The notes below the pieces were generated by a model, which was given only the letters and a program-made list of their open reading frames with translations, ran no database searches and had not been told where the DNA came from. DNA of 64,000 nucleotides. Source: Giardia intestinalis. Its lineage: Eukaryota. Of this stretch, positions 3,731 to 46,700 are shown one piece after another (positions within the stretch are counted from its first letter, which is position 1; each line of letters begins with the position of its first letter). A program made the position numbers and the translations under genes. The DNA is taken from the NCBI GenBank assembly GCA_000002435.2, contig CM018791.1; one strand, 5' to 3'.

Positions 3731-3991
3731 TCAAGGCTCCATAATTTACTAGTTTGCCAGCAGGCCGTCGAATCTGCATTATCACCAGTGCTGGAAGTCA
3801 CTCCAGCCTCTGTAGCATTTGTATATATGCATCTGTAGGTTCCTTGTTCCATGCCTCTTGCCACGTATCCTTGCTCAAGATAGCTTCAGTCAAAGCCTTT
3901 TCAGGATCCTGAAGAACGCCAAATTCTTCGAACTCGTCATACATCAGGACCTCTGCACGGACATCATCTTTTGCTTCTATCATACTTTTTA

Positions 3992-6900
3992 ATGAATAAT
4001 TTAACGAATGAGGACATCAAAGCCTTTGCCAATAAGCCCCTCACAGAGCTAGTGGCACTTGCTGGATCATACTACATGGATGGAAATGACGAAGAGGTCG
4101 TTGTTTGCTTCAATCATCTGGCTAAGAGGCTCGAACTCGAGGAGAAGTACACGCGCGCCCTGGACTATGCACTCGCCGATGCGCACCTCTCGGCAACTAT
4201 CTCCGACTATGCTAGCAGCGCAATATCTCTATCGCAGGTTGCAAACCTTCTCAACGCCCAGGATGACGCGACTGACAGGTGTACTCTTCCTGCATATTAT
4301 ACGTCAGTAATGTCCATGAAACACTTAATGGGGCTACACTACCTGTCGCTGGACGACTCCGTTCCCCCAGTGGTCTCGGAGGACACCCTTGAGCGCTTCC
4401 TACTGTACAAAAAAATCAATCTTAATTCTATTTCTCAAAACGTTGACTATTCGTTTTCTATTCATGCAATCCTTGCACGGTTTGTATTGGATGGACATGA
4501 CACGTGTATACGGCACGTTTACCACAATCTTAAGTCAAGCCTGCTGTACTTTGATGCTATTATCAAGGCAAGCAAGCGCACTGCAGGCCTGCTAGAGTCA
4601 AACAACGTGTTGCTGAATGCAGCAGTGACACATGTGCGTCTCTTGATAATGCGTTATCGCGATTCTGAGGAGTTTATCAAGAATGCGAAGATGATATCTG
4701 TAAAGCTGCTCGATAGAGACCTGAGGCCAAGCTACCACATGGCTGTGTGCACTCACGCCTGTATGCACTATTCTTCACGGCTATTTTGGAAGGGACTCCT
4801 ACAAAGCAGCATTACTTTCCCAGCGGCCAAGGAAAGGGTTCCCCTAAGTGTCATTCTCTCAAAATTAAACCACTCGGCATCTGATACACAGGGAGAATCG
4901 TCTATTTTTCGAAAACTTGACATTATTTTCGCCGATCTTCTATCGAGTTTGCAGATTAGCAATTGTAGCGCAATTGTGCGTGATAATGCAATCCTGGAGT
5001 TTGTAGAACTACTAGGAAAGTACCCTCTTCTCACGCATTCATTTGTTCCGTTCGTGGAGGACAAGCTAAGGGTCTTGGATCATGATGCAGTCGATGAGGC
5101 CCAGGAGGCTTTCAGCTCTGCCCTTAAGAGATACCGCTATTTTAGTGAGAGCATTGTAAGGATGGATCAGAGCATAGTTGCAGACTTTTCTGACCTTGTT
5201 GAAATTACTGAGGCCGATAACGCTAGAGAGTGTATCGCTCTTATCCCGGGGCTCACAGTGTTTTCTACTGCGAGTCCAGGTGTTGTGGCCATAATCTATA
5301 ACTTCTTGCAGTCAATACATGCGCTCAAAGAGGGTCTCTATTTCTCTGTCAAGCCCGAAGGCAGTGAGGTGCACTCCAGCTCCAGGGAGCTCAGTGGTAT
5401 CATGGCCTACACTGATTCCCTCAAGTCCCTGTTCTCTACGTCCATCGACGGTACATTCTTTGACAAGACTCTCTTCCACTTTGCATGGTTTTTGTTGAAA
5501 GACTATGACGCTAACGTTGAAGAAAGGGTTGTTAAGGTAATGCCACCAAAATTGGCCTTGTTGTTTCTAGAAACGATCGTGTTGGCTGGGCAGTACGTTT
5601 TTGTTATTCTACAAGAATTGGAAGGCTCGACGGTCACAGACACCCTACAGACGCTTTGTGAAAAGGTTGTGTTTACGATGGATAACAATATTGACTTATT
5701 GTCCTTGTCCACAACTACTCACAAGGTGCTACTGTCGGTGCTCCTGAACTTGTTGGACAGCGATAATTTTCAAAGTGGATCCGAGGACGTGTTCGGCATC
5801 ACCTCTGCAACATACGTGCTCATTTGTGATGTCCTATCTTATAAAGAGCCTATTTCCAACTATGGGCGGTTTCTTCGAACCGTACTGCATTCTTTTTACA
5901 CGACACCGAGCATTGTAACTGCGGCTAAGGAAAGCTGCAGCTGGCAGAAGGAGTTATTGGACCTACTGCAGAGCCTTTATAACATGGGAACCATGTATTG
6001 TCTCGATATTCGATTCGAACAGATTTTGTCCAGAGAAAATGGGTCGGCCTCCACCGCCGACGTCTCCTTTGGACAGATACAGGCCTTACTGATTAAAATG
6101 ACAAATGACTTTGGCATCTCTTGCTCACTGCTGGCAACACGTGAACTGTTCTCCTATCGCCAGGAATTCGATCTAGACAGATGGATGGTAAAGCGTCGAA
6201 TCGTAAAATACCCAAGACCCCATAGAACACGTGAGTTGTTTCTAGATAAGCATCCATACATTCAATCCACAATCCGCATGTTGGACACAAATTCTGCCTA
6301 CGGAGGCAGGAACAGCATATTCAGAAGCAAAGTACAAGCACGCCCATTCACTGAAAAAGAAAAAGAAAGCAAGACGCCCGATTCGTCCGATAGTCAGGAG
6401 CCCGCCTCCCATCCTACAGAGGATCATTCAGGGTCATTTAAAGAAGACATTAGTACTGCTGACTCCAGTGATAACTCCAACGATAAGGTAATAGAGCCGG
6501 AGATTAAGACGATACCCGTCAAGATGGATGCAGCAGAGCTATTTGCACCTCCCAGAGAAGAGCAGACTATGCAAACAATCCTTTTGAACGTATATTCTAA
6601 CTATGGGCTACGGCCACGAGACCTAGTTACCATGAGTGTTCTGCCAGGCGAGCGCCTTGTTGCTCTAGACAGCTCACGTATTGTGAAGTATGTCCCAGAC
6701 TCTGACAATTTTGCCTTTATCTGTTATCTTGTCAAGCAGCTTTTAACCGCAGAAGACATCACAGCCTCAGCACTTTCAGGGGGTCGAGTCTGTGAAACTG
6801 TACGATTATCTCTGGGTCAGGTGGATGCATCCGAAGCCCAAATGCATGAACTATTGAACTTTCTACTTCTCCGGGGGAGCAAGTTGAGCCTTCATTTGGC

Positions 6901-21762: not shown

Positions 21763-22024
21763 TTTTTCGGGCAGGATTTATTATTGACCAGAGGCTTTGT
21801 GGCACTCCTCTAGAGAAGATCTCAGTGTCAGCTTTAGGCCACTCCCATGGACATCGTCTGTTCCTGATCTCAGGGGCCCGTCAGGCTTCTCACGCTACCT
21901 CGCGGCTCCTCCGGGCGCGCGGCCCTGCTACTTCAAAGAGACTCGACTCCCAAGCCCCGCCTGGCCACCGAGCGGCCTGCAGGGTCCTTGCGCCCCCTGG
22001 GCCCGTGATGTGGCACATGGATGC

Positions 22025-22039
22025 GTTTACTACCTGAGT
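22025..22039 (-). promoter_or_regulatory. Conserved VSP 3' processing/polyadenylation motif (ACTYAGRTAGTRAAY), minus strand.
   Basis: The plus strand reads 'gtttactacctgagt', which is the reverse complement of ACTCAGGTAGTAAAC. It sits 2 nt after the VSP stop. AGTAAAY is the Giardia polyA signal (established knowledge). Confidence 0.6.
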
Positions 22040-22041
22040 AT

Positions 22042-24063
22042 CTACGCTTTGCCTCTGCAGATGAACCACCAGCAGAGGAACCCGACGAGCCCCCCGACTA
22101 CGACAATCACAGCAACAGAGATGCCGGCGATGGCCCCAGTGGAGAGGCCGCTCTTGTTCGTGCTTCCACCGGTGTTGTCGCTAGTGCCATCGCCCATCTC
22201 AAGGCACATGAACGCATCGGTGGATGACACCGTGCACTGCCTGCACCCAGCGAGCCCCTCAGAGCACGGATTACACTTTGTCCCAGCACTCTGCGGTTTG
22301 TAATATCCAGTGCTGCATGTAGCACAGGCGTTAGCGTCGTTAGCAGCCGTGCATGTCTCGCAGCTAAGATGGCACCTTTTATTGGAACAATCGCCATTAT
22401 CAGCCGTTAGACCACTGGCACATTTTGTACATTTTCCTCCCTGCACTGTAGTACACACTTGTTTACCAGGCTGTCTATTTGTTTGATAGCAACCGCCATC
22501 TTTGAGGAAGTAGTTATTTTCACATTGAGTGCATGCTCCATTACTCACCGTAGTGCAAAATCGTGTTCGCGTATTGGCCGCACAGTTGCCATCCAGTGGC
22601 GCTTGCTGAGCGTTCTTGCACTTTGAGCAGTATGCAGTTCCTCCTATCTGAGCCCCACACTCTGCGCATCCATCGTTTGTAGAACTCACACTGCACTGGT
22701 TCATGCACGTGCCCCCATTGGCAGGAGTATCAGCATCTGTATACTGAAGCATCTTCCCAGCAGGACAGGCCGTGCACTTATCAGCGCCCTCACCCTTGCA
22801 CTCTACGCACGCATCGTTGCACTTCTTGCAGGTCTTTTTGCCACTATCGTCTCCGTAGTAGCCCTTGAGGGTCGTGCAGTCAGATACGCATTGACTGGTT
22901 GGGGTGAGGTAGTACTCAGACAGACACTTTGTACAGACCTCCTTATCAGCGCCTTCACCGGTGCACTCCAAACAGTGCTCTGTGTTACAGTTACTGATTG
23001 GTCGGCATTCAGTCGATTCAGTATTAGGCTGGAGTCCTTCGTTGCACTCGCACACTTGGCTATCCTGTCCGGTGGCCTTGGGGGTAGAGTTAGCAGGGCA
23101 ACTAGCAACGCACGACTTTTTGTTGAGGCCAAAGATGGTCTTATCAGAATCGGGGCACTCTTTGCATACTGCTCCGTCGCCGTTCTTTTCACAAGTCTTA
23201 CAATCTTTTGCCCCGCCCGATGTGCAGGTAGTGCAGGTCTTCGCTGCTTCATCTATGTAGTGTGTTGCTGGGCAATCGCCCTGATTAACGCACGTGCCTG
23301 TCTCACTGTCATCCTCCTTCTTCAGGTAGGGCGTGGCTTCAGTACACGAGGTACACTGCGTCTCTGTATTCTCGCATGTCTTACAGCTGGAAGCACATTT
23401 GCTGCACTTCTTTCCATTACGTGAGTCCACAAAATACCCATTATTGCAATCGGCCTCCTCGACACACGACGTTACGCCGTCGACTGTCTTGACAATCTTA
23501 CCGCCTCCACATGCATTACATGTAGCGGCTTTTGGTGCATCAGTCGCCTGCTCTGGCTTCTCGCAGGTGGTGCACCCATCTACGCCTGTGTACTTCTTAC
23601 CATCGCCAAGCGTCACTCCTTCGACGTCTCCACACCAGACAACCGACTGGTCTGTTTTGGTGGCCCCTGGAACAACAAAGTAGTTCTTTGTGGTAGCAGC
23701 CTCAGCGCATATCCCGTTTGTGGTAACCGTTTTACACATTTGATTGCCAGGTGTAGCGTCTTTTGAGTAACACCCGCCTTTGTACAAGAAATGATTTGCC
23801 GCATCGCACTGCTCGCACCTAACACTCGAAGCGTCAACGTTATCACCTGCCTTCTTTTTGCACCCGGCAGTTGTGACGGCGTTGTCATTTTGTGGTTTAC
23901 ATATTCCGTCAATAGGAACATTTCCTTGGTCTTTACACTCTGTGCATATCTCAGTGCTGCCAGCCATTTCACACATATTTTCCTTACATTTGCCAACCTG
24001 AGTATCTGCAGAACACGTCGCTGCGAGTGTACTCAGTGCAAAACAAAATGCCACCAACAACAT
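22042..24063 (-). CDS. vsp: Variant-specific surface protein (VSP), 673 aa, copy 1.
   Basis: Signal peptide 'MLLVAFCFALSTLAATCSA', dozens of CXXC motifs, GGCY motifs ('YKGGCY', 'KDGGCY'), a C-terminal TM helix, and the invariant tail 'CRGKA-stop'. Confidence 0.95.
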   Translation of the reverse strand: MLLVAFCFALSTLAATCSADTQVGKCKENMCEMAGSTEICTECKDQGNVPIDGICKPQNDNAVTTAGCKKKAGDNVDASSVRCEQCDAANHFLYKGGCYSKDATPGNQMCKTVTTNGICAEAATTKNYFVVPGATKTDQSVVWCGDVEGVTLGDGKKYTGVDGCTTCEKPEQATDAPKAATCNACGGGKIVKTVDGVTSCVEEADCNNGYFVDSRNGKKCSKCASSCKTCENTETQCTSCTEATPYLKKEDDSETGTCVNQGDCPATHYIDEAAKTCTTCTSGGAKDCKTCEKNGDGAVCKECPDSDKTIFGLNKKSCVASCPANSTPKATGQDSQVCECNEGLQPNTESTECRPISNCNTEHCLECTGEGADKEVCTKCLSEYYLTPTSQCVSDCTTLKGYYGDDSGKKTCKKCNDACVECKGEGADKCTACPAGKMLQYTDADTPANGGTCMNQCSVSSTNDGCAECGAQIGGTAYCSKCKNAQQAPLDGNCAANTRTRFCTTVSNGACTQCENNYFLKDGGCYQTNRQPGKQVCTTVQGGKCTKCASGLTADNGDCSNKRCHLSCETCTAANDANACATCSTGYYKPQSAGTKCNPCSEGLAGCRQCTVSSTDAFMCLEMGDGTSDNTGGSTNKSGLSTGAIAGISVAVIVVVGGLVGFLCWWFICRGKA

Positions 24064-24649
24064 TGTATTGTGGATTGGATTGCAATAAGATTCTGTTGGT
24101 GGTTGGACTGCTCCTGATAAGAAGACTCCATGCTTGCTAGTTCTTAATCAGCTTGAGACTCTTAGTCATTCATCTCAGAGGACAAAACCGGCATGTTCAG
24201 TAATGAGTGCACTGGCTCTCAAGCCGTACCACGTGTGCCGCTGGGGCCTACCTACATGTATGGTCCAGAAGTCTCACGGGCAAGCCTCGCTCAGTCCCTG
24301 GCCAGTCCGGAGGAGAGGGCTGGCCGCGGGTCGTAACGATAACCACAGCGGTGATAGGGAAGAGCTCCCTCCGTTTGTGGATCTGGGGTCTGTGCGTTCC
24401 TCGGCTGTTCCGCGGGCGTACGTGTCGATCTTTTCGAGGTTTTCTTACGGGCTCACTGTTCTACTGAGGGTGCCTCTCCTTGGTCTCTCTTCATAGTAGG
24501 TGAAGCTCTGGTCGTTGTCTTTTTAGATGCCCCCATCTGTCACAACTACTGCCGTCAGGGCTCTCTCCACCGGCTGAGATTCCACTCGATTGTGTGTCCG
24601 GTCTTGCGCCCCTTCTCGATCGTTGTCGTCGGGTCCCGGGGATGGACTC

Positions 24650-26450
24650 ATTCGGTTGTCAGAAGTAGGATGACAGGAGACGGTCGCTCTGGGTGACCAG
24701 GCTTTCGGCCCGGCCGCGTCTGATCAGCTTCGTCGGGTGCTCGTTCGCCTCTGCAGCCATGTGGGCGATGGCGAAGGCAGCCCGGACAGAGGTCCACGTG
24801 GAGCTCCTCGAGGTGCCCCTTGGACTTGGGGTGGAGGGATCCGTCTGTCTCGTCCCTGTACTTCTTGACCTTCTCGTTGTAGTAGGCATCCATCTGGCGG
24901 GGCTGGATGACACCCACGTCCACTGCCTTGCACTTGTCGACGAGCCAGATGTCGGGCTTCTGGTTCTGGTCGCTGAGGTGGCTGTGGGTCTCGACTTCCA
25001 GCTCTGCGTTGAACTTCCCTGAGACGCGGAGGTACAGGCACGCGACGATCATGTCGTGCCTTGTGGCAGCCCGGGCAGGTGCCTCTTGTCTGCGCCATGA
25101 TCGAGCCGCCCTTCTCCTTCAGGGCCCTTTCCTCCTCGGTCAGCACGCCGCACATCTGCAGACAGTACGCCGCCGCTCTATCCGGAAGCTGGTGTGTGCG
25201 CGTGAGGAGGCGGTTGGAGTAGGTCCCCTTCCCCTGCAGTGCCTGACCGCCCACCGACAGCTCCACCGGGTCCCTGGTCCCCTTGTTGACGTCCGGGGAG
25301 GCCCATGCCCTCCGCAGCTCGTCGTGGCAGAGCTCCGGCATGAGCAGGCCCGGGCCGCCCTTCTCCTTCGGGTACGCCAGGAAGTCGACCAGGCGATCGC
25401 AGCTTCTGTTGGTTAGTGCCTGAAGCCTTGTGCGACGCGTCTGTTGAGCTCCTCGTAGTCCGCCTTGTTCGATGTCATCTCGACCAGGGGGGCGTAGTTC
25501 ACCATCGGGACCACACAGAGTGACAGCAGGATGAGCTTCTGGTGGATGGTTATGGGGGCATTCTCAATCTTCCTCAGGGCAGTCTCGGCACCTGCGATGG
25601 CCTTCGGCGCGAGACTGGTAGGGATGGGGGACACCGGGTGGTTGAGGAAGGTCACCTCCTCGCCCGCCACGGTGGACTTGCATTTGTCGCTCCTGATCGT
25701 CAGGCCCATAGCCTGCTGTACTATTGCGCCTGCTGGGTACCCCTCGTCGTGGAGCGCCACGATGTCGTCCGCATAGGCAAGGAAGGTGATGCCCCTCCTT
25801 GAGGCGTCTCAGGAGGCGCTCGGTGGCCATGCAGAAGAGGAACATGCTGAGCGGGTCGCCCTGGGAGACGCCGCAGACCTCGCACTTCACGTCCCGGCTG
25901 TGCCTCGGCTCGAGGAAGTTCCTGATGTAGTCGATCAGGACCTTCGGGATGCCCGCCTCGTTCAGGGCTCTGACGACCTCTGCCCTCGGGAGCGAGTTGA
26001 GGGCGTTCTTTGTGTCGAGGGAGACGGCGTGCACCCCCGGCCTGCTGATGAGCTCGTGGGCCCTCCTCACGCCTACCGCGTATGCGTTCTGCATGAAGGC
26101 GATCTGTTCGCATGAGGGGTAGTTGGCATGCCTGATCAGTCGCTTCAGCAGGATGCGGTGGAAGATGCTTGTCACCGTCTCGCCATCGCGATCGGGGGTA
26201 TCCATCGGACTCCTTCAGGGTGGGTGGTCAGCTCGTTGTACGCCTGCGTGAGGTACTTCACGAAGCTGTCGTTCTGCTTCATCGCCTGAGCTGGACCGCC
26301 CGAGACCAGACAGGCCTTGTTGAGGGTTCCAAACAGGGCCTTCCTCATTTCTTCTTCGGTTGCCGGCTCCAGCCCCGTCGAGCTCATCGATGGAGGGCAG
26401 TCAAAGCCAACGTAGCCTTCGGGGAGGACGCACGGGTGTAGCGCGCTGAG
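24650..26450 (-). mobile_element. Degenerate non-LTR retrotransposon remnant (Giardia GilM/GilD-like). The RT and restriction-like endonuclease domains are split over at least 4 frames. It may extend 5' to about 27060.
   Basis: Minus-strand RT motifs 'FHRILLKRL', 'SQGDPLS' (about 25845) and 'FLAYADDIV' (about 25770, in a +1 shifted frame). Downstream are C..C/H..C clusters and the RLE motif 'KPDIWLVDKCKAVDVGV' (about 24959). The region is GC-rich relative to its flanks. Confidence 0.6.
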
Positions 26451-27364
26451 GGCGGTCGGCCTTCTTCGGCTTGTCTACCATGGGTGTGCCATCAAGGGCG
26501 CGGAGAGCCTTAGCAACTGCCCCGAAGCTCAGCGCGTTGTTCACCCTGTTTGCTATCCGGCGCCTCGCCCTCTCTGGATCTGGGTCCGACTTGCCTGGGA
26601 CTGCTCCGGGTGTTGCTTGAGTCTTCTAGCAGTTTCCTACCAAGGCGTCTAGACCCCTGATAGCGGGGAGCGCGACCCCAGTCCCTGCCTGCTCGATGCT
26701 CGCGATCATGCGCGCACCCTGGTGGATGAGCATGGCAGCTGTCTGATTCGGTATGTGGGACGGAATGATCAGTTTGTCGTCACCTAGTACTCTGTGTCTG
26801 TCATCATTTGCTTCTCTCAGGTGCTCGGTTAGTTGTTTAGCCTCTCGCACGGCAGGCCACAGAGCCAGCGTGTGTGTCCTGCTGAGAGAGTAAATGTCTT
26901 CGGAGTGGTCTCCCAAGTAGAGACTCACGGCTTGCTGTTTGGGGTCTCGGAGGTACGATCTTGCGTTCATAATGTGGATCGGGTCCTCGCGGGCTCTCCT
27001 TCGCCTCAGGTCCAGCTGTGTGCACGCCCGCGGAACAGCCAAGACACAAGACCCCAGATCCACAAACGGAGGGAGCTCCTCCTATCACCACTGTGGCTAT
27101 CACTGCGACCTTCGCCTTCGAGCTGGCCAGGGACTGAGCGAGGCTTGCCCGTGAGACTTCTGGACCATACATGTAGGTAGGCCCCAGCGGCACACGTGGT
27201 ACGGCTTGAGAGCCAGTGCACTCATTACTGAACATGCCGGTTTTGTCCTCTGAGATGAATGACTAAGAGTCTCAAGCTGATTAAGAACTAGCAAGCATGG
27301 AGTCTTCTTATCAGGAGCAGTCCAACCACCAACAGAATCTTATTGCAATCCAATCCACAATACA

Positions 27365-29386
27365 ATGTTGTTGGTGGCATTTTGTTTTGCACTGAGTACA
27401 CTCGCAGCGACGTGTTCTGCAGATACTCAGGTTGGCAAATGTAAGGAAAATATGTGTGAAATGGCTGGCAGCACTGAGATATGCACAGAGTGTAAAGACC
27501 AAGGAAATGTTCCTATTGACGGAATATGTAAACCACAAAATGACAACGCCGTCACAACTGCCGGGTGCAAAAAGAAGGCAGGTGATAACGTTGACGCTTC
27601 GAGTGTTAGGTGCGAGCAGTGCGATGCGGCAAATCATTTCTTGTACAAAGGCGGGTGTTACTCAAAAGACGCTACACCTGGCAATCAAATGTGTAAAACG
27701 GTTACCACAAACGGGATATGCGCTGAGGCTGCTACCACAAAGAACTACTTTGTTGTTCCAGGGGCCACCAAAACAGACCAGTCGGTTGTCTGGTGTGGAG
27801 ACGTCGAAGGAGTGACGCTTGGCGATGGTAAGAAGTACACAGGCGTAGATGGGTGCACCACCTGCGAGAAGCCAGAGCAGGCGACTGATGCACCAAAAGC
27901 CGCTACATGTAATGCATGTGGAGGCGGTAAGATTGTCAAGACAGTCGACGGCGTAACGTCGTGTGTCGAGGAGGCCGATTGCAATAATGGGTATTTTGTG
28001 GACTCACGTAATGGAAAGAAGTGCAGCAAATGTGCTTCCAGCTGTAAGACATGCGAGAATACAGAGACGCAGTGTACCTCGTGTACTGAAGCCACGCCCT
28101 ACCTGAAGAAGGAGGATGACAGTGAGACAGGCACGTGCGTTAATCAGGGCGATTGCCCAGCAACACACTACATAGATGAAGCAGCGAAGACCTGCACTAC
28201 CTGCACATCGGGCGGGGCAAAAGATTGTAAGACTTGTGAAAAGAACGGCGACGGAGCAGTATGCAAAGAGTGCCCCGATTCTGATAAGACCATCTTTGGC
28301 CTCAACAAAAAGTCGTGCGTTGCTAGTTGCCCTGCTAACTCTACCCCCAAGGCCACCGGACAGGATAGCCAAGTGTGCGAGTGCAACGAAGGACTCCAGC
28401 CTAATACTGAATCGACTGAATGCCGACCAATCAGTAACTGTAACACAGAGCACTGTTTGGAGTGCACCGGTGAAGGCGCTGATAAGGAGGTCTGTACAAA
28501 GTGTCTGTCTGAGTACTACCTCACCCCAACCAGTCAATGCGTATCTGACTGCACGACCCTCAAGGGCTACTACGGAGACGATAGTGGCAAAAAGACCTGC
28601 AAGAAGTGCAACGATGCGTGCGTAGAGTGCAAGGGTGAGGGCGCTGATAAGTGCACGGCCTGTCCTGCTGGGAAGATGCTTCAGTATACAGATGCTGATA
28701 CTCCTGCCAATGGGGGCACGTGCATGAACCAGTGCAGTGTGAGTTCTACAAACGATGGATGCGCAGAGTGTGGGGCTCAGATAGGAGGAACTGCATACTG
28801 CTCAAAGTGCAAGAACGCTCAGCAAGCGCCACTGGATGGCAACTGTGCGGCCAATACGCGAACACGATTTTGCACTACGGTGAGTAATGGAGCATGCACT
28901 CAATGTGAAAATAACTACTTCCTCAAAGATGGCGGTTGCTATCAAACAAATAGACAGCCTGGTAAACAAGTGTGTACTACAGTGCAGGGAGGAAAATGTA
29001 CAAAATGTGCCAGTGGTCTAACGGCTGATAATGGCGATTGTTCCAATAAAAGGTGCCATCTTAGCTGCGAGACATGCACGGCTGCTAACGACGCTAACGC
29101 CTGTGCTACATGCAGCACTGGATATTACAAACCGCAGAGTGCTGGGACAAAGTGTAATCCGTGCTCTGAGGGGCTCGCTGGGTGCAGGCAGTGCACGGTG
29201 TCATCCACCGATGCGTTCATGTGCCTTGAGATGGGCGATGGCACTAGCGACAACACCGGTGGAAGCACGAACAAGAGCGGCCTCTCCACTGGGGCCATCG
29301 CCGGCATCTCTGTTGCTGTGATTGTCGTAGTCGGGGGGCTCGTCGGGTTCCTCTGCTGGTGGTTCATCTGCAGAGGCAAAGCGTAG
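27365..29386 (+). CDS. vsp: Variant-specific surface protein (VSP), 673 aa, copy 2. It is 100% identical to copy 1.
   Basis: Protein identical to 22042..24063. CRGKA tail, signal peptide and CXXC/GGCY motifs are all present. Confidence 0.95.
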   Translation: MLLVAFCFALSTLAATCSADTQVGKCKENMCEMAGSTEICTECKDQGNVPIDGICKPQNDNAVTTAGCKKKAGDNVDASSVRCEQCDAANHFLYKGGCYSKDATPGNQMCKTVTTNGICAEAATTKNYFVVPGATKTDQSVVWCGDVEGVTLGDGKKYTGVDGCTTCEKPEQATDAPKAATCNACGGGKIVKTVDGVTSCVEEADCNNGYFVDSRNGKKCSKCASSCKTCENTETQCTSCTEATPYLKKEDDSETGTCVNQGDCPATHYIDEAAKTCTTCTSGGAKDCKTCEKNGDGAVCKECPDSDKTIFGLNKKSCVASCPANSTPKATGQDSQVCECNEGLQPNTESTECRPISNCNTEHCLECTGEGADKEVCTKCLSEYYLTPTSQCVSDCTTLKGYYGDDSGKKTCKKCNDACVECKGEGADKCTACPAGKMLQYTDADTPANGGTCMNQCSVSSTNDGCAECGAQIGGTAYCSKCKNAQQAPLDGNCAANTRTRFCTTVSNGACTQCENNYFLKDGGCYQTNRQPGKQVCTTVQGGKCTKCASGLTADNGDCSNKRCHLSCETCTAANDANACATCSTGYYKPQSAGTKCNPCSEGLAGCRQCTVSSTDAFMCLEMGDGTSDNTGGSTNKSGLSTGAIAGISVAVIVVVGGLVGFLCWWFICRGKA

Positions 29387-29388
29387 AT

Positions 29389-29403
29389 ACTCAGGTAGTA
29401 AAC
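29389..29403 (+). promoter_or_regulatory. Conserved VSP 3' processing/polyadenylation motif ACTCAGGTAGTAAAC.
   Basis: The sequence 'gcgTAGatACTCAGGTAGTAAACgcatcc' lies immediately after the CRGKA stop codon. Confidence 0.6.
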
Positions 29404-30098
29404 GCATCCATGTGCCACATCACGGGCCCAGGGGGCGCAAGGACCCTGCAGGCCGCTCGGTGGCCAGGCGGGGCTTGGGAGTCGAGTCTCTTTGAAGTAG
29501 CAGGGCCGCGCGCCCGGAGGAGCCGCGGACACGTCTCAGGCAGGGCGACGGCCTCCGGTGCCCAAGACCGGTTACACACGGCGGGGTGGACAGAAATTAT
29601 AGTTTCATATGGCTCCTTTTGTCTAGGGAAGCAACTCGTAGTTATTTGGCTTCTATTTCAGAATATCTTTACTGAGCGTCAATTCTTGTGATACTACATA
29701 CTGAAGAGTTATAAAAAGTACTCAGAATATATTGTCAAGAGAATACGAAGCGCCTATACAATAGAGTGTACGCATATTATGCACGTATTCAGGCTCACTT
29801 TGCTTAGTTTAGTTGTATTTAGCTATAACTTTTCAGAGAACTTTACACTGGATTGCAAAGGCGCTCAGTGGTAAGTGACATTAGGATGAACGCAGATCTG
29901 GGTTATTTCTATTCATGGCATGGCTTGCACCTAACTAACCAGTAGAACTAATAGCTAATATCCATGAAATACTAGATACGTAGTTTACTGCACAACCTCA
30001 ATTAGAGCAAGTGGTAAGTACACTGCGATACGCTTCTTCAGCTGTGTACTCTTGAGTAGATATTTATAAGTAAAGCATCTGAGTATTAAGCATAGTGC

Positions 30099-39706: not shown

Positions 39707-42700
39707 CCAACCTGTCCTGGCATGCTGTTTCCCCGGTCAACGAGGTATGTCGATGGGCCAACCTGTCCTGGCATGCTGTTTCCCCGGTCAACGAGGTGCG
39801 TCGATGGGCCAACCTGTCCTGGCATGCTGTTTCCCCGGTCAACGAGGTGCGTCGATGGGCCAACCTGTCCTGGCATGCTGTTTCCCCGGTCAACGAGGTG
39901 CGTCGATGGGCCACCTGTCCTGGCATGCTGTTTCCCCGGTCAACGAGGTGCGTCGATGGGCCAACCTGTCCTGGCATGCTGTTTCCCCGGTCAACGAGGT
40001 GCGTCGATGGGCCAACCTGTCCTGGCATGCTGTTTCCCCGGTCAACGAGGTGCGTCGATGGGCCAACCTGTCCTGGCATGCTGTTTCCCCGGTCAACGAG
40101 GTGCGTCGATGGGCCAACCTGTCCTGGCATGCTGTTTCCCCGGTCAACGAGGTGCGTCGATGGGCCAACCTGTCCTGGCATGCTGTTTCCCCGGTCAACG
40201 AGGTGCGTCGATGGGCCAACCTGTCCTGGCATGCTGTTTCCCCGGTCAACGAGGTGCGTCGATGGGCCAACCTGTCCTGGCATGCTGTTTCCCCGGTCAA
40301 CGAGGTGCGTCGATGGGCCTGGCATGCTGTTTCCCGGTCAACGAGGTGCGTCGATGGGCCAACCTGTCCTGGCATGCTGTTTCCCCGGTCAACGAGGTGC
40401 GTCGATGGGCCAACCTGTCCTGGCATGCTGTTTCCCCGGTCAACGAGGTGCGTCGATGGGCCAACCTGTCCTGGCATGCTGTTTCCCCGGTCAACGAGGT
40501 GCGTCGATGGGCCAACCTGTCCTGGCATGCTGTTTCCCCGGTCAACGAGGTGCGTCGATGGGCCTAGCTGGCCCGGAGTCCCATTTCCCCGGTCAACGAG
40601 GTGCGTCGATGGGCCAACCTGTCCTGGCATGCTGTTTCCCCGGTCAACGAGGTATGTCGATGGGCCAACCTGTCCTGGCATGCTGTTTCCCCGGTCAACG
40701 AGGTGCGTCGATGGGCCAACCTGTCCTGGCATGCTGTTTCCCCGGTCAACGAGGTGCGTCGATGGGCCAACCTGTCCTGGCATGCTGTTTCCCCGGTCAA
40801 CGAGGTTGTCGATGGGCCTAGCTGGCCCGGAGTCCCATTTCCCCGGTCAACGAGGTGCGTCGATGGGCCAACCTGTCCTGGCATGCTGTTTCCCCGGTCA
40901 ACGAGGTGCGTCGATGGGCCAACCTGTCTGGCATGCTGTTCCCCGGTCAACGAGGTGCCGATGGCCAGCTGCGGGTTCCCCGGTCAACGAGGTGCGTCGA
41001 TGGGCCAACCTGTCCTGGCATGCTGTTCCCCGGTCAACGAGGTGCGTCGATGGGCCAGCCTGCCGGCATCCTTTCCCCCGGTCAACGAGGTGCGTCGATG
41101 GGCCAACCTGTCCTGGCATGCTGTTTCCCCGGTCAACGAGGTGCGTCGATGGGCCACCTGTCCTGGCATGCTGTTTCCCCGGTCAACGAGTGCGTCGATG
41201 GCCAACCTGTCCTGGCATGCTGTTTCCCCGGTCAACGAGGTGCGTCGATGGGCCAACCTGTCCTGGCATGCGTTTCCCCGGTCAACGAGGTGCGTCGATG
41301 GGCCAACCTGTCCTGGCATGCTGTTTCCCCGGTCAACGAGGTGCGTCGATGGGCCAACCTGTCCTGGCATGCTGTTTCCCCGGTCAACGAGGTGCGTCGA
41401 TGGGCCAACCTGTCCTGGCATGCTGTTTCCCCGGTCAACGAGGTGCGTCGATGGGCCAACCTGTCCTGGCATGCTGTTTCCCCGGTCAACGAGGTGCGTC
41501 GATGGGCCAACCTGTCCTGGCATGCTGTTTCCCCGGTCAACGAGGTGCGTCGATGGGCCAACCTGTCCTGGCATCCGTTTCCCCGGTCAACGAGGTGCGT
41601 CGATGGGCCAACCTGTCCTGGCATGCTGTTTCCCCGGTCAACGAGGTGCGTCGATGGGCCAACCTGTCCTGGCATGCTGTTTCCCCGGTCAACGAGGTGC
41701 GTCGATGGGCCACCTGCCTGGAGCGTTTCCCCGTCCGAGGTGCTCGATGGCCCTGTCCCTGTTTTCCCCGGTCAACGAGGTGCGTCGATGGGCCAACCTG
41801 TCCTGGCATGCTGTTTCCCCGGTCAACGAGGTGCGTCGATGGGCCACCTGTCCTGGCATGCCTGTTTCCCCGGTCAACGAGGTGCGTCGATGGGCCAACC
41901 TGTCCTGGCATGCTGTTTCCCCGGTCAACGAGGTGCGTCGATGGGCCAACCTGTCCTGGCATGCTGTTTCCCCGGTCAACGAGGTGCGTCGATGGGCCCT
42001 GCTGGCAGTCCATTTCCCCGGTCAACGAGGTATGTCGATGGGCCTAGCTGGCCCGGAGTCCTTTCCCCGGTCAACGAGGTGCGTCGATGGGCCAACCTGT
42101 CCTGGCATGCTGTTTCCCCGGTCAACGAGGTGCGTCGATGGGCCAACCTGTCTGGCATGCTGTTTCCCCGGTCAACGAGGTGCGTCGATGGGCAACCTGT
42201 CCTGGCATGCTGTTTCCCCGGTCAACGAGGTGCGTCGATGGGCCTAGCTGGCCCGGAGTCCCATTTCCCGGTCAACGAGGTACGTCGATGGGCCTAGCTG
42301 GCCCGGAGTCCATTCCCCGGTCAACGAGGTGCGTCGATGGGCCAACCTGTCCTGGCATGCTGTTTCCCCGTCAACGAGGTGCGTCGATGGGCCAACCTGT
42401 CCTGGCATGCTGTTTCCCCGGTCAACGAGGTGCGTCGATGGGCCTAGCTGGCCCGGAGTCCCATTTCCCCGGTCAACGAGGTATGTCGATGGGCCTAGCT
42501 GGCCCGGAGTCCCATTTCCCGGTCAACGAGGTGCGTCGATGGGCCAACCTGTCCTGGCATGCTGTTTCCCCGGTCAACGAGGTGCGTCGATGGCCACCTG
42601 TCCTGGCATGCTGTTCCCCGGTCACGAGGTGCGTCGATGGGCCAACCTGTCCTGGCATGCTGTTTCCCCGGTCAACGAGGTGCGTCGATGGGCCAGCTGG

Positions 42701-43718
42701 CCCGGAGTCCATTTCCCGGTCAACGAGGTGCGTCGATGGGCCCTGTCCTGGCAGTGTTCCCCGGTCAACGAGGTGCGTCGATGGGCCAGCTGGCCGGAGT
42801 CTTTTCCCGGTCAACGAGGTGCGTCGATGGGCCAACCTGTCCTGGCATGCTGTTTCCCCGGTCAACGAGGTGCGTCGATGGGCCAACCTGTCCTGGCATG
42901 CTGTTTCCCCGGTCAACGAGGTATTCGATGGGCCTGCTGGCCGGAGTCCATTTCCCCGGTCAACGAGGATGCGTCGATGGGCCATAGCTGGCCCGGAGTC
43001 CTTTCCCCGGTCAACGAGGTGCGTCGATGGGCCTAGCTGGCCCGGAGTCCTTTCCCCGGTCAACGAGGTGCGTCGATGGGCCAACCTGTCCTGGCATGCT
43101 GTTTCCCCGGTCAACGAGGTGCGTCGATGGGCCAACCTGTCCTGGCATGCTGTTTCCCCGGTCAACGAGGTGCGTCGATGGGCCAACCTGTCCTGGCATG
43201 CTGTTTCCCCGGTCAACGAGGTATGCTCGATGGGCCTAGTGGCCCGGAGTCCATTTCCCCGGTCAACGAGGTGCGTCGATGGGCCAACCTGTCCTGGCAT
43301 GCTGTTTCCCCGGTCAACGAGGTTGCTCGATGGGCCAACCTGTCCTGGCATGCTGTTTCCCCGGTCAACGAGGTGCGTCGATGGGCCAACCTGTCCTGGC
43401 ATGCTGTTCCCGGTCAACGAGGTGCGTCGATGGGCCAACCTGTCCTGGCATGCTGTTTCCCCGGTCAACGAGGCTATGTCGATGGGCCAACCTGTCCTGG
43501 CATGCTGTTTCCCCGGTCAACGAGGTGCGTCGATGGGCCAACCTGTCCTGGCATGCTGTTTCCCCGGTCAACGAGGTCGTCGATGGGCCAACCTGTCCTG
43601 GCATGCTGTTTCCCCGTCAACGAGGTTGTCGATGGGCCTAGCTGGCCCGGAGTCCCATTTCCCGGTCAACGAGGTTATGTCGATGGCCTAGCTGGCCGGA
43701 GTCCCATTTCCGGTCAAC
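39707..43718. repeat. 51-bp tandem repeat array, proximal part (about 79 units) up to the assembly gap.
   Basis: Period of 51 bp verified ('catgctg' at 39721 and again at 39772). Unit A is 'ccaacctgtcctggcatgctgtttccccggtcaacgaggtgcgtcgatggg'. Unit B is 'cctagctggcccggagtcccatttccccggtcaacgaggtatgtcgatggg'. There are many 1-nt homopolymer-length variants. Confidence 0.95.
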
Positions 43719-46700
43719 NNNNNNNNNNNNNNNNNNNNNNNNNNNNNNNNNNNNNNNNNNNNNNNNNNNNNNNNNNNNNNNNNNNNNNNNNNNNNNNNNN
43801 NNNNNNNNNNNNNNNNNNNNNNNNNNNNNNNNNNNNNNNNNNNNNNNNNNNNNNNNNNNNNNNNNNNNNNNNNNNNNNNNNNNNNNNNNNNNNNNNNNNN
43901 NNNNNNNNNNNNNNNNNNNNNNNNNNNNNNNNNNNNNNNNNNNNNNNNNNNNNNNNNNNNNNNNNNNNNNNNNNNNNNNNNNNNNNNNNNNNNNNNNNNN
44001 NNNNNNNNNNNNNNNNNNNNNNNNNNNNNNNNNNNNNNNNNNNNNNNNNNNNNNNNNNNNNNNNNNNNNNNNNNNNNNNNNNNNNNNNNNNNNNNNNNNN
44101 NNNNNNNNNNNNNNNNNNNNNNNNNNNNNNNNNNNNNNNNNNNNNNNNNNNNNNNNNNNNNNNNNNNNNNNNNNNNNNNNNNNNNNNNNNNNNNNNNNNN
44201 NNNNNNNNNNNNNNNNNNNNNNNNNNNNNNNNNNNNNNNNNNNNNNNNNNNNNNNNNNNNNNNNNNNNNNNNNNNNNNNNNNNNNNNNNNNNNNNNNNNN
44301 NNNNNNNNNNNNNNNNNNNNNNNNNNNNNNNNNNNNNNNNNNNNNNNNNNNNNNNNNNNNNNNNNNNNNNNNNNNNNNNNNNNNNNNNNNNNNNNNNNNN
44401 NNNNNNNNNNNNNNNNNNNNNNNNNNNNNNNNNNNNNNNNNNNNNNNNNNNNNNNNNNNNNNNNNNNNNNNNNNNNNNNNNNNNNNNNNNNNNNNNNNNN
44501 NNNNNNNNNNNNNNNNNNNNNNNNNNNNNNNNNNNNNNNNNNNNNNNNNNNNNNNNNNNNNNNNNNNNNNNNNNNNNNNNNNNNNNNNNNNNNNNNNNNN
44601 NNNNNNNNNNNNNNNNNNNNNNNNNNNNNNNNNNNNNNNNNNNNNNNNNNNNNNNNNNNNNNNNNNNNNNNNNNNNNNNNNNNNNNNNNNNNNNNNNNNN
44701 NNNNNNNNNNNNNNNNNNNNNNNNNNNNNNNNNNNNNNNNNNNNNNNNNNNNNNNNNNNNNNNNNNNNNNNNNNNNNNNNNNNNNNNNNNNNNNNNNNNN
44801 NNNNNNNNNNNNNNNNNNNNNNNNNNNNNNNNNNNNNNNNNNNNNNNNNNNNNNNNNNNNNNNNNNNNNNNNNNNNNNNNNNNNNNNNNNNNNNNNNNNN
44901 NNNNNNNNNNNNNNNNNNNNNNNNNNNNNNNNNNNNNNNNNNNNNNNNNNNNNNNNNNNNNNNNNNNNNNNNNNNNNNNNNNNNNNNNNNNNNNNNNNNN
45001 NNNNNNNNNNNNNNNNNNNNNNNNNNNNNNNNNNNNNNNNNNNNNNNNNNNNNNNNNNNNNNNNNNNNNNNNNNNNNNNNNNNNNNNNNNNNNNNNNNNN
45101 NNNNNNNNNNNNNNNNNNNNNNNNNNNNNNNNNNNNNNNNNNNNNNNNNNNNNNNNNNNNNNNNNNNNNNNNNNNNNNNNNNNNNNNNNNNNNNNNNNNN
45201 NNNNNNNNNNNNNNNNNNNNNNNNNNNNNNNNNNNNNNNNNNNNNNNNNNNNNNNNNNNNNNNNNNNNNNNNNNNNNNNNNNNNNNNNNNNNNNNNNNNN
45301 NNNNNNNNNNNNNNNNNNNNNNNNNNNNNNNNNNNNNNNNNNNNNNNNNNNNNNNNNNNNNNNNNNNNNNNNNNNNNNNNNNNNNNNNNNNNNNNNNNNN
45401 NNNNNNNNNNNNNNNNNNNNNNNNNNNNNNNNNNNNNNNNNNNNNNNNNNNNNNNNNNNNNNNNNNNNNNNNNNNNNNNNNNNNNNNNNNNNNNNNNNNN
45501 NNNNNNNNNNNNNNNNNNNNNNNNNNNNNNNNNNNNNNNNNNNNNNNNNNNNNNNNNNNNNNNNNNNNNNNNNNNNNNNNNNNNNNNNNNNNNNNNNNNN
45601 NNNNNNNNNNNNNNNNNNNNNNNNNNNNNNNNNNNNNNNNNNNNNNNNNNNNNNNNNNNNNNNNNNNNNNNNNNNNNNNNNNNNNNNNNNNNNNNNNNNN
45701 NNNNNNNNNNNNNNNNNNNNNNNNNNNNNNNNNNNNNNNNNNNNNNNNNNNNNNNNNNNNNNNNNNNNNNNNNNNNNNNNNNNNNNNNNNNNNNNNNNNN
45801 NNNNNNNNNNNNNNNNNNNNNNNNNNNNNNNNNNNNNNNNNNNNNNNNNNNNNNNNNNNNNNNNNNNNNNNNNNNNNNNNNNNNNNNNNNNNNNNNNNNN
45901 NNNNNNNNNNNNNNNNNNNNNNNNNNNNNNNNNNNNNNNNNNNNNNNNNNNNNNNNNNNNNNNNNNNNNNNNNNNNNNNNNNNNNNNNNNNNNNNNNNNN
46001 NNNNNNNNNNNNNNNNNNNNNNNNNNNNNNNNNNNNNNNNNNNNNNNNNNNNNNNNNNNNNNNNNNNNNNNNNNNNNNNNNNNNNNNNNNNNNNNNNNNN
46101 NNNNNNNNNNNNNNNNNNNNNNNNNNNNNNNNNNNNNNNNNNNNNNNNNNNNNNNNNNNNNNNNNNNNNNNNNNNNNNNNNNNNNNNNNNNNNNNNNNNN
46201 NNNNNNNNNNNNNNNNNNNNNNNNNNNNNNNNNNNNNNNNNNNNNNNNNNNNNNNNNNNNNNNNNNNNNNNNNNNNNNNNNNNNNNNNNNNNNNNNNNNN
46301 NNNNNNNNNNNNNNNNNNNNNNNNNNNNNNNNNNNNNNNNNNNNNNNNNNNNNNNNNNNNNNNNNNNNNNNNNNNNNNNNNNNNNNNNNNNNNNNNNNNN
46401 NNNNNNNNNNNNNNNNNNNNNNNNNNNNNNNNNNNNNNNNNNNNNNNNNNNNNNNNNNNNNNNNNNNNNNNNNNNNNNNNNNNNNNNNNNNNNNNNNNNN
46501 NNNNNNNNNNNNNNNNNNNNNNNNNNNNNNNNNNNNNNNNNNNNNNNNNNNNNNNNNNNNNNNNNNNNNNNNNNNNNNNNNNNNNNNNNNNNNNNNNNNN
46601 NNNNNNNNNNNNNNNNNNNNNNNNNNNNNNNNNNNNNNNNNNNNNNNNNNNNNNNNNNNNNNNNNNNNNNNNNNNNNNNNNNNNNNNNNNNNNNNNNNNN

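What the first reader, a model, noticed from the sequence alone, without database searches (positions are those of the whole stretch)
24650..27060. Frameshifted non-LTR retrotransposon relic (RT plus restriction-like endonuclease) at the centre of the VSP palindrome, away from any telomere repeat
On the minus strand the order is: RT motifs 0-2 (about 26200), 'SQGDPLS' (about 25845), 'FLAYADDIV' (about 25770, in a +1 frame), cysteine/histidine clusters (about 25080 and about 24767), and the PD-(D/E)xK-type motif 'KPDIWLVDKCKAVDVGV' (about 24959). This is the domain order of site-specific R2/NeSL/Genie-type elements, which in Giardia are GilM, GilT and GilD (established knowledge). The QGDPLS-to-YADD frameshift falls exactly at a GGGG homopolymer ('aaggaggggcatcacc'). 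It could therefore be a consensus error rather than real decay. The element appears 5'-truncated and no TAGGG telomere repeats are nearby. This places an RT-bearing element inside an antigen-gene duplication rather than in the usual subtelomeric arrays.
Basis: partly seen in the sequence, partly recalled or inferred. Interest (0 to 1): 0.55.

Follow-up and report, generated by a model that had tools for sequence, protein, structure and literature searches.

The report
Dead GilD retrotransposon between twin VSP genes
This is a decayed copy of Giardia's known "dead" retrotransposon family (GilD/Genie 2), lying between two identical back-to-back surface-antigen (VSP) genes; that is where such copies usually lie, and this locus is already listed in the literature.

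Summary
The minus strand of 24.2-27.2 kb carries a frameshifted reverse transcriptase plus CCHC/restriction-like endonuclease (RLE) relic. It fills the 2,789-nt spacer of a perfect 2,419-nt inverted repeat whose arms each hold a 673-aa VSP gene.

Three details are wrong:
- The copy is full length, not 5'-truncated. It is colinear with four other copies from the start codon (26970) to the stop (24659).
- The QGDPLS-to-YADD frameshift is a 2-nt deletion shared with an independently sequenced copy, so it is not a consensus error.
- The "Cys/His cluster" near 24767 is an out-of-frame artefact.

Every copy of the family carries its own terminal inverted repeats of about 170-190 nt. The window's perfect arms end inside that repeat.

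The family matches the published descriptions of GilD: all copies dead, microhomology deletions, non-telomeric, next to VSP genes. The genes are GL50803_00119706/119707 of isolate WB. A 2022 preprint already lists their 3,301-nt interval as holding "retrotransposon relics".

Verdict: correct call, already known, low interest. The one open idea is that the element's own inverted repeat seeded the VSP palindrome.

The parts
21901..24319 (.). Left arm of the perfect inverted repeat (2,419 nt)
   Evidence: the repeat finder, 100% complementary to 27109-29527
22042..24063 (-). VSP gene, 673 aa. One of GL50803_00119706/119707, which is vsp168.1/168.2 of isolate WB.
   Evidence: ORF list. The identical copy in the other arm matches Pfam VSP at E=3.7e-77. 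The sequence, the length and the 3,301-nt spacing match the supplementary tables of the preprint and of Adam et al. 2010.
24233..24419 (.). Family-wide terminal inverted repeat on the 3' side of the element. The outer 87 nt lie inside the perfect arm. The inner ~100 nt are only 87-89% complementary to the other side.
   Evidence: Alignment of the 5' and 3' repeats of five copies; blastn self-matches; motif coordinates
24420..24658 (-). 3' untranslated region of the relic; no poly(A) tail
   Evidence: Multi-copy alignment downstream of the shared TGA stop
24659..26970 (-). Decayed single ORF (about 827 aa when repaired): N-terminal region, RT, thumb/linker, CCHC, RLE. It now lies in frames -2/-3/-2/-3/-1.
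   Evidence: tblastn of the repaired consensus covers residues 1-827 in five frame-shifted pieces; translations
25640..26225 (-). Reverse transcriptase domain (approximate limits). Motif A 26002-26028, motif B SQGDPLS 25846-25866, motif C FLAYADDIV 25758-25784. Motif 0/1 is removed by a 53-nt deletion at about 26220.
   Evidence: Pfam RVT_1 at E=9.6e-16, and at 1.7e-25 on the repaired consensus; deletion catalogue
25785..25800 (-). Site of the frameshift between QGDPLS and YADD: a 2-nt deletion (AAGGAGAGAGGC to AAGGAGGGGC), shared with DH copy L001
   Evidence: Multi-copy alignment, columns 1770-1771; P0004 reads KEGHHLPCL
25044..25077 (-). Remnant of the CCHC motif (CPGCH) fused to the RH motif (RHDMIV). 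A 59-nt private deletion removed the H...C half.
   Evidence: Alignment columns 2527-2585; the intact form CPGCHTARTLDHDMNCPK...TRHD is seen in P0001 and P0003
24795..25056 (-). Restriction-like endonuclease remnant. RH, KPD (24945-24959), VDVGV (24909-24923) and EKVKKY (24858-24875) are kept. A 21-nt deletion at about 24852 removed beta-strand 4.
   Evidence: [quoted passage not shown]
24765..24788 (-).
   Evidence: It follows an 11-nt deletion shared by the window copy, L001 and L002. The true frame gives VRAAFAIAHMAAEANEH.
26971..27023 (-). Short 5' leader between the 5' inverted repeat and the start codon
   Evidence: Multi-copy alignment; coordinates
27024..27195 (.). Family-wide terminal inverted repeat on the 5' side of the element
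27109..29527 (.). Right arm of the perfect inverted repeat
27365..29386 (+). VSP gene, identical twin of 22042-24063, arranged head to head

Best explanation
The relic is one full-length but dead copy of Giardia's non-telomeric RLE-type non-LTR retrotransposon family. This is the family called GilD by Arkhipova and Morrison (2001) and, as I recall it, Genie 2 by Burke et al. (2002).

The ancestral element encoded a single protein of about 830 aa: an N-terminal region, then RT, thumb, a CCHC finger and a PD-(D/E)XK nuclease. By homology with R2, it would have nicked its target with the nuclease and copied its RNA by target-primed reverse transcription (inferred).

The window copy can do none of this. 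It has at least four frame changes and private deletions of 10, 53, 59 and 21 nt, which remove RT motif 0/1, half of the CCHC finger and nuclease strand beta-4 (shown).

Several lesions are shared with copies at other loci, so the family kept multiplying after it was already defective (shown). Whether that was by DNA-level duplication or by mobilisation in trans is not resolved.

Every copy carries its own terminal inverted repeats of about 170-190 nt (shown).

In the window that repeat is continued outwards by 2.3 kb of perfect inverted duplication, which includes a whole VSP gene. This makes the identical head-to-head pair GL50803_00119706/119707, with the relic as spacer (shown).

Most likely the element's built-in inverted repeat was the seed: a fold-back or a template switch at the repeat copied the neighbouring VSP gene to the other side. 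Exchange of sequence between the arms then kept them identical (inferred; I put this step at about 0.45).
For: Identity as an RT/RLE element:
- Pfam RVT_1 at E=9.6e-16 on the stitched translation and 1.7e-25 on the repaired consensus.
- The best solved-structure match by sequence is R2 protein 9nl2_A, E=1.4e-11, with three colinear stretches that include CCHC and RLE.
[quoted passage not shown] Its six best Foldseek matches in the PDB are all R2 proteins (E 1.6e-7 to 1.5e-6), followed by influenza PA PD-(D/E)XK nucleases.
- C199, C202, C214, H225, D260, D271 and K287 are invariant across 14 diplomonad homologues. These correspond to the CCHC, RH, PD, D and K..KY motifs defined for R2 in PMC4838377.

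Family behaviour:
- Five copies are 85.5-87.2% identical over about 2.7 kb.
- All five are frameshifted.
- Two of the three largest private deletions have 5-6 nt of junction microhomology.
- Shared lesions: 2-nt and 7-nt deletions (window + L001) and an 11-nt deletion (window + L001 + L002).
- There are no telomere repeats in the window.
- PMC2861651 describes GilD as disrupted by microhomology-mediated deletions and lying next to VSP genes.

Inverted repeats:
- Present at every copy and alignable between copies.
- L003 has a 170-nt, 98% complementary repeat with no VSP palindrome. L002 has arms that reach tail-to-tail VSP ends.
- The window's perfect arms stop 87 nt inside the family repeat.
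- Both window arms share a ~24-nt insertion absent from all other copies, which shows transfer of sequence between arms.

Locus history: the orthologous interval is 3.2 kb with one VSP and no element in isolate P15. It is 0.5 kb with neither in a more distant Giardia lineage.

Literature: the locus is already listed with 'Two retrotransposon relics'.
Against: - I could not compare the relic with the deposited GilD or Genie 2 sequences, and neither founding paper was readable. The assignment to GilD therefore rests on published descriptions and on elimination.
- My recollection that Burke et al. 2002 report inverted repeats of up to 172 bp on Genie 2 is unverified.
- No poly(A) tail, no target-site duplication and no N-terminal zinc-finger or Myb domain was found, so some textbook non-LTR features are absent.
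- For the seeding step there is no intermediate state, such as a single VSP next to a GilD at this locus.
- The position of the boundary between perfect and imperfect repeat is equally expected if the element had entered an older palindrome and gene conversion followed.
- In WB most tail-to-tail pairs are reported to hold a different 'VSP like' spacer, so GilD cannot explain all pairs.
Confidence: 0.85

Rival explanations
1. The element was inserted into the centre of a VSP palindrome that already existed. For example, its Holliday-junction-resolvase-like nuclease might prefer cruciform DNA. The flanking inverted repeats would then be target sequence rather than part of the element.
For: - No target-site duplication or poly(A) marks the element's true ends.
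- R2-type nucleases resemble archaeal Holliday junction resolvases (PMC4838377).
- The element sits exactly between the arms in the window and in L002.
Against: - The same ~190-nt repeat core flanks copies that have no VSP palindrome around them, at unrelated loci (L003, L001). The core therefore travels with the element.
- The locus-specific extensions differ in length (+35 nt, at least 750 nt, 2.3 kb) and in gene orientation.
- The perfect arms end inside the core, not at its edge.
Confidence: 0.08
2. The relic is a decayed fragment of the telomeric families GilM or GilT that was moved to an internal site.
For: It has the same overall domain order. A second Giardia RT/RLE protein (P0070) aligns colinearly with the repaired consensus, E=2e-50.
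Against: - Identity to that other Giardia family is only 28% over 617 aa.
- The unit is 2.96 kb, against 5,474 bp reported for GilM (PMC7000408).
- There are no tandem arrays and no telomere repeats.
- Five colinear copies share the same short ends.
Confidence: 0.03
3. The perfect 2.4-kb arms are an assembly artefact, and only one VSP gene is really present.
For: 100% identity over 2,419 nt is what a collapsed or mirrored assembly would give. Adam et al. note that such pairs broke the early assemblies.
Against: - The pair is reported independently in the 2010 Sanger assembly analysis (vsp168.1/168.2, head to head, 3,302 nt apart, 3' divergence at 141 nt) and in the later long-read assembly as analysed by the preprint.
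- The inner ~100 nt of the two arms differ by substitutions and an 11-nt indel, so the two sides are distinct sequences.
- The two outer junctions join different unique DNA that is syntenic with P15 on both sides.
Confidence: 0.02
4. The sequence is a functional or domesticated host RT gene, and the apparent frameshifts are sequencing errors.
For: One frameshift lies next to a G run.
Against: - The copy has at least four frame changes plus deletions of 10, 53, 59 and 21 nt that remove catalytic and structural motifs.
- Lesions are shared with independently sequenced copies.
- No copy in any isolate has an intact ORF.
Confidence: 0.01

Closest known systems
GilD (Arkhipova and Morrison 2001, PNAS 98:14497); I recall the same family being called Genie 2 (Burke, Malik, Rich and Eickbush 2002, MBE 19:619)
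   Same: - Giardia host, and non-telomeric.
- Every copy is dead, with frameshifts, substitutions and internal deletions, several of them with microhomology.
- It lies next to VSP genes (PMC2861651).
- It has flanking inverted repeats of about 170-190 nt. The figure 'up to 172 bp' for Genie 2 is from my memory and is unverified.
   Different: Nothing that I could test.
R2 elements (Bombyx mori R2Bm, and the bird and turtle R2 proteins with solved structures)
   Same: - A single ORF with the order RT, thumb, CCHC, PD-(D/E)XK nuclease.
- RH, PD, D and K..KY motifs are present.
- R2 proteins are the best sequence and fold matches.
   Different: - No recognisable N-terminal zinc-finger or Myb domain.
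- Not inserted in rDNA.
- No HDV-like ribozyme or any other Rfam match.
- Flanked by inverted repeats.
- The protein is about 830 aa, against about 1,100.
GilM and GilT, the telomeric Giardia retrotransposons
   Same: Same host and the same broad clade of diplomonad RLE-type elements. Related proteins are also found in Spironucleus and Hexamita.
   Different: Those families form head-to-tail subtelomeric arrays of potentially active units of about 5.5 kb. This family is dispersed, about 3 kb long, dead, and only about 28% identical in protein to the other Giardia RT family found.
Identical inverted vsp gene pairs of Giardia WB (Adam et al. 2010, PMC2996952; Lujan-laboratory preprint 10.1101/2022.03.07.483299)
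   Same: The window holds pair vsp168.1/168.2, which is GL50803_00119707/119706: head to head, 673 aa, 3,301-3,302 nt between ORFs, arms ending 141 nt past the stop codon.
   Different: - Adam et al. called the intervening DNA non-coding and the pairs 'cryptic'.
- The preprint notes 'retrotransposon relics' but does not describe the element's own inverted repeats.
- Neither notes that the perfect arms end inside those repeats.
Large palindromes that grow from short inverted repeats (Tetrahymena rDNA, yeast and mammalian fold-back amplification) and palindromes kept identical by arm-to-arm gene conversion (human Y chromosome). This comparison rests on established knowledge and was not tested here.
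   Same: - A short, older and diverged inverted repeat lies at the inner edge of long perfect arms.
- There is evidence of sequence transfer between arms.
   Different: The mechanism is only inferred for this locus. No intermediate or break junction was observed.

Membership tests
RLE-type non-LTR retrotransposon (R2/NeSL/Genie kind) | Reverse transcriptase domain of the non-LTR/group II type | tested here: met
   Pfam RVT_1 at E=9.6e-16 for the window translation and 1.7e-25 for the repaired consensus. The top PDB sequence hits are R2 proteins and group II intron RTs.
RLE-type non-LTR retrotransposon (R2/NeSL/Genie kind) | [quoted passage not shown] | tested here: met
   Family level: the residues are invariant in 14 homologues, the model has the expected topology, and the six best fold matches are all R2. 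Window copy: CxxC, RH, KPD, D and EKVKKY are kept; the H..C half and strand beta-4 are deleted.
RLE-type non-LTR retrotransposon (R2/NeSL/Genie kind) | N-terminal DNA-binding zinc-finger or Myb motifs | tested here: not met
   No Pfam domain in the first ~270 residues of the window translation or of the repaired consensus. This feature is not universal in the group.
RLE-type non-LTR retrotransposon (R2/NeSL/Genie kind) | Non-LTR ends: no terminal repeats, a 3' tail, and target-site duplication or deletion | tested here: not met
   All copies end in inverted repeats of about 170-190 nt, with no poly(A). No target-site duplication was seen by eye at L003, but this was not tested formally.
RLE-type non-LTR retrotransposon (R2/NeSL/Genie kind) | Site-specific insertion | tested here: inconclusive
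   The copies lie in different gene contexts, but always inside the same inverted-repeat core. That core could be either part of the element or its target.
GilD / Genie 2 of Giardia | Found in Giardia duodenalis, at internal rather than telomeric positions, next to vsp genes | tested here: met
   The VSP genes are GL50803_00119706/119707. There is no TAGGG repeat in 64 kb. L002 also lies between VSP ends. The published description is in PMC2861651.
GilD / Genie 2 of Giardia | Only dead copies, with frameshifts, substitutions and internal deletions, the deletions often showing microhomology | tested here: met
   All five copies are frameshifted. The window's 53-nt and 21-nt deletions have 5-nt and 6-nt microhomology. 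The 59-nt deletion has 0 nt, or 4 nt under an alternative placement I worked out by hand from the junction sequences shown.
GilD / Genie 2 of Giardia | Flanking inverted repeats of up to about 172 bp (recalled from Burke et al. 2002; unverified) | tested here: met
   L003 has 170 nt at 98% plus 34 nt. The window core is 24233-24419 and 27024-27195.
GilD / Genie 2 of Giardia | Nucleotide identity to the deposited GilD or Genie 2 reference sequences | not testable with these tools
   The reference sequences and both founding papers were unavailable.
GilM / GilT telomeric retrotransposons | Head-to-tail arrays next to telomere repeats; unit of about 5.5 kb; potentially intact ORF | tested here: not met
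   There is a single copy, no telomere repeats, a 2.96-kb unit and a broken ORF. The GilM length comes from PMC7000408.

The most novel reading that the evidence does not exclude
The dead retrotransposon is more than a passenger. Its built-in ~190-nt terminal inverted repeat is the structural seed from which identical inverted VSP (and CRMP, cysteine-rich membrane protein) gene pairs grow, by fold-back or template-switch copying of the flank. Arm-to-arm gene conversion then keeps the copies identical. A defunct mobile element would then be a recurrent engine of antigen-gene duplication in Giardia, and read-through of such palindromes could yield long hairpin RNAs that feed VSP silencing. The evidence here does not exclude this. 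The repeat exists without VSP arms at some loci, the perfect arms start inside it, and related isolates lack both the element and the duplication at this locus.
Probability: 0.3. Interest if true: 0.5.

Novelty: already known. Interest (0 to 1): 0.2.

Why it matters
As stated, the finding matters little. It correctly re-identifies a family described in 2001-2002, at a locus already tabulated in 2022.

The useful by-products are corrections to the annotation:
- The relic is full length.
- Its lesions are real and partly inherited.
- It carries terminal inverted repeats.

There is also one concrete, testable lead. Adam et al. (2010) called the identical inverted VSP pairs of Giardia 'cryptic'. 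These pairs may be palindromes nucleated by the element's own inverted repeat. If that held genome-wide, it would link a dead transposon to the growth of the antigenic-variation gene repertoire.

Tried and rejected
- Reading Arkhipova and Morrison 2001 and Burke et al. 2002 failed; neither is held. A search for 'Genie 1/Genie 2' found nothing.
- An exact look-up of the window's VSP protein in the contig index found no record. The genes were identified through the papers' supplementary tables instead.
- The first AlphaFold run, with a two-sequence alignment, gave pLDDT 37.5 and was discarded without a fold search. A 14-sequence alignment was then used.
- An Rfam scan of 24000-27500 at E up to 1, run to look for an R2-like HDV ribozyme among other things, found nothing.
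- A majority consensus of the five copies still contains frameshifts, because lesions are shared. The 827-aa 'repaired' protein was therefore stitched by hand from in-frame pieces and is only a working reconstruction.
- I considered whether DH copy L001, which also lies next to a kinase gene, is the orthologue of the window copy. I rejected this: its flanks do not match the window, and identity is 85.8%, against 98.6% for orthologous DNA of a closely related isolate.
- I considered the homopolymer-error explanation for the frameshift and rejected it.
- I looked for traces of the element in the orthologous intervals of P15 and two other lineages with sensitive blastn and tblastn, and found none.
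Full report
WHAT IS THERE

The window contains a perfect inverted repeat with arms 21901-24319 and 27109-29527: 2,419 nt, 100% complementary, 2,789 nt apart. Each arm carries a 673-aa ORF (22042-24063 on the minus strand, 27365-29386 on the plus strand). That ORF matches Pfam VSP at E=3.7e-77. The two genes are arranged head to head.

The spacer is GC-rich, 59-64% against 44-52% in the flanks. A frame-stitched translation hits Pfam RVT_1 at E=9.6e-16. No TAGGG repeat occurs anywhere in the window. The core observation is therefore real and far beyond chance.

RELATED COPIES, AND WHAT THEY CORRECT

A protein search found only Giardia duodenalis hypothetical proteins and unnamed metagenome proteins. 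All of them read as frameshifted fragments. I fetched their contigs.

The window segment 24433-27043 aligns end to end at 85.5-87.2% with three copies from isolate DH (L001-L003) and one metagenome copy (L004). A five-copy alignment gives four corrections:

- The window copy is not 5'-truncated. It is colinear with the others from the shared 5' end and start codon (26970) to the TGA stop (24659). tblastn of a repaired 827-aa consensus covers residues 1-827, in frames -2/-3/-2/-3/-1.
- The frameshift between QGDPLS and YADD is a 2-nt deletion within AAGGAGAGAGGC. The identical lesion is present in DH copy L001, whose annotated protein P0004 reads the same 'KEGHHLPCL'. It is inherited, not a consensus error.
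- The second 'Cys/His cluster' (24765-24788) exists only in a wrong frame, after an 11-nt deletion. Copies without that deletion read VRAAFAIAYMAAKANEH there.
- The window copy has private deletions of 10, 53, 59 and 21 nt. These remove RT motif 0/1, the H...C half of the CCHC finger and nuclease strand beta-4. The 53-nt and 21-nt deletions have 5-nt and 6-nt junction microhomology.

Lesions shared between copies at different loci show that the family went on multiplying after it was already defective. These are the 2-nt and 7-nt deletions (window + L001) and the 11-nt deletion (window + L001 + L002).

WHAT KIND OF ELEMENT IT IS

- The repaired consensus hits RVT_1 at E=1.7e-25.
- Its best solved-structure match by sequence is an R2 retrotransposon protein, 9nl2_A, at E=1.4e-11. 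The match has three colinear stretches, the last aligning CxxC...H...C, RH, KPD, D-V-x-V and EK..KY.
- An exhaustive HMMER search with the intact homologue P0001 found full-length relatives in Spironucleus salmonicida and Hexamita inflata (annotated 'Reverse_transcriptase/endonuclease'), and a second Giardia RT family.
- Across 14 of these proteins, C199, C202, C214, H225, D260, D271 and K287 are invariant. These are the CCHC, RH, PD, D and K..KY positions defined experimentally for the R2 nuclease (PMC4838377).
- A first AlphaFold model was unusable (pLDDT 37.5). [quoted passage not shown]
- The six best Foldseek matches of that model in the PDB are all R2 proteins (E 1.6e-7 to 1.5e-6), followed by influenza PA PD-(D/E)XK nucleases.

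The RT-plus-RLE reading is therefore supported at motif, sequence and fold level. Features not found are an N-terminal zinc-finger or Myb domain, a poly(A) tail and any Rfam family.

WHICH GIARDIA FAMILY

- The other Giardia RT/RLE protein found (P0070) is only 28% identical to the repaired consensus over 617 aa.
- GilM is reported as a 5,474-bp unit in subtelomeric arrays (PMC7000408).

The window relic fits GilD on every descriptor I could test. I could not compare it with the deposited sequences, and both founding papers were unavailable.

INVERTED REPEATS BELONG TO THE ELEMENT

Every copy is flanked by inverted repeats:

- L003 has 170 nt at 98% plus 34 nt, with no VSP palindrome around it.
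- L001 has degenerate repeats.
- L002 has arms 163-1083 and 3855-4773, running from 99% complementary at the outside to 81% at the inside. They reach tail-to-tail VSP ends at both ends of the contig.

Aligning the 5' and 3' repeats of all copies shows a shared core, from GTGTGCTGCTGGGGCC to GGCTGTTCCGCGGGCGT. In the window this core is 24233-24419 and 27024-27195. This agrees with my unverified recollection that Burke et al. (2002) reported inverted repeats of up to 172 bp on Genie 2.

The window's perfect arms end 87 nt inside this core. The inner ~100 nt are only 87-89% complementary and differ by an 11-nt indel. Both arms nevertheless share a ~24-nt insertion absent from all other copies, which shows that sequence has passed between the arms.

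THE LOCUS IN OTHER LINEAGES

The flanking genes are a 998-aa ORF and a 730-aa kinase.

- In isolate P15 they are syntenic up to window positions 29721 and 21846. There the interval is 3.2 kb, with one unrelated VSP and no trace of the element.
- In a more distant Giardia lineage the two genes are 0.5 kb apart, with neither VSP nor element.
- A contig from an isolate 98.6% identical to the window ends 40 nt inside the right arm. This is expected if the repeat is present there too.

LITERATURE STATUS

- The VSP sequence, length and spacing identify the pair as GL50803_00119706/119707, which is vsp168.1/168.2: head to head, 673 aa.
- Adam et al. (2010) list it with 3,302 nt between ORFs and divergence 141 nt past the stop codon. 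The window gives 3,301 nt and 141 nt. They treat the intervening DNA as non-coding and call the pairs 'cryptic'.
- The 2022 preprint 10.1101/2022.03.07.483299 lists this interval (3,301 nt) as 'Pseudogene / Two retrotransposon relics'. It reports the same for three other head-to-head VSP pairs and one head-to-head CRMP (cysteine-rich membrane protein) pair. It reports a different 'VSP like' spacer for most tail-to-tail pairs.

The finding is therefore already known.

MECHANISM

Shown:
- A dead, full-length GilD-type copy forms the spacer of a VSP palindrome.
- The element family carries its own inverted repeats.
- The perfect arms begin inside that repeat.
- Sequence has been exchanged between the arms.
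- Other lineages lack both the element and the duplication at this locus.

Inferred:
- The ancestral element moved by nuclease nicking and target-primed reverse transcription, as R2 does.
- The element's inverted repeat seeded a fold-back or template-switch copy of the neighbouring VSP gene, and gene conversion keeps the arms identical. I put this at about 0.45.

The main rival is insertion into an older palindrome. It is disfavoured because the same repeat core accompanies copies that have no VSP arms. It is not excluded.

VERDICT

Three details need correction: the supposed 5' truncation, the consensus-error idea and one spurious motif. The location is typical for the family rather than surprising.

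Interest is low (0.2) and the novelty class is 'already known'. The only lead worth following is the genome-wide test of whether GilD's inverted repeats nucleate the inverted VSP pairs.

Noticed in passing
window 39707-43675 and 53066-55106: Two arrays of the same 51-nt tandem repeat, about 80 and about 40 copies, in the same orientation. They flank a ~9.4-kb stretch with very long ORFs on both strands: 43076-53653 (+), 3,525 aa, and 43714-53118 (-), 3,134 aa.
   Followed up: no
window 21847-29720, compared with L006 9886-13132 and L009 9754-10289: The interval between the 998-aa gene and the 730-aa kinase is 7.9 kb here. It is 3.2 kb with one unrelated VSP in isolate P15, and 0.5 kb with no VSP in a more distant Giardia lineage. 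The site appears to be a recurrent landing place for VSP genes.
   Followed up: partly
L002 1-4773 (DH contig AHGT01000170.1): A tail-to-tail VSP pair in isolate DH has the same retroelement family at its centre. Arm identity falls from 99% at the outside to 81% next to the element, a gradient rather than the step seen in the window.
   Followed up: partly
window 24424-24565; L002 467-610 and 4345-4431; L001 5892-5966: A piece of about 75-145 nt of the element's 3' untranslated region recurs outside the repeat core. It appears in both extended arms of L002 and, inverted, upstream of the L001 copy. It may be left over from nested or tandem copies; it remains unexplained.
   Followed up: no
window 24367-24395 and 27048-27076 (approximate): Both inner repeat arms of the window carry the same ~24-nt insertion (CCCTCCGTTTGTGGATCTGGGGTCT), absent from all other copies. 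This is evidence that sequence has been copied from one arm to the other.
   Followed up: partly
L004 1-2870 (metagenome scaffold ERZ28627677): This is the least damaged copy of the family seen: three ORFs of 183, 267 and 367 aa, so only two frame breaks over about 2.4 kb. It comes from a metagenome rather than a cultured isolate.
   Followed up: no
proteins P0036, P0082, P0088, P0084: Apparently intact relatives of the RT-CCHC-RLE protein exist in Spironucleus salmonicida, in Hexamita inflata and in unnamed sequencing runs; one of these is 2,036 aa. The clade therefore seems to be spread across diplomonads and still active outside Giardia.
   Followed up: partly
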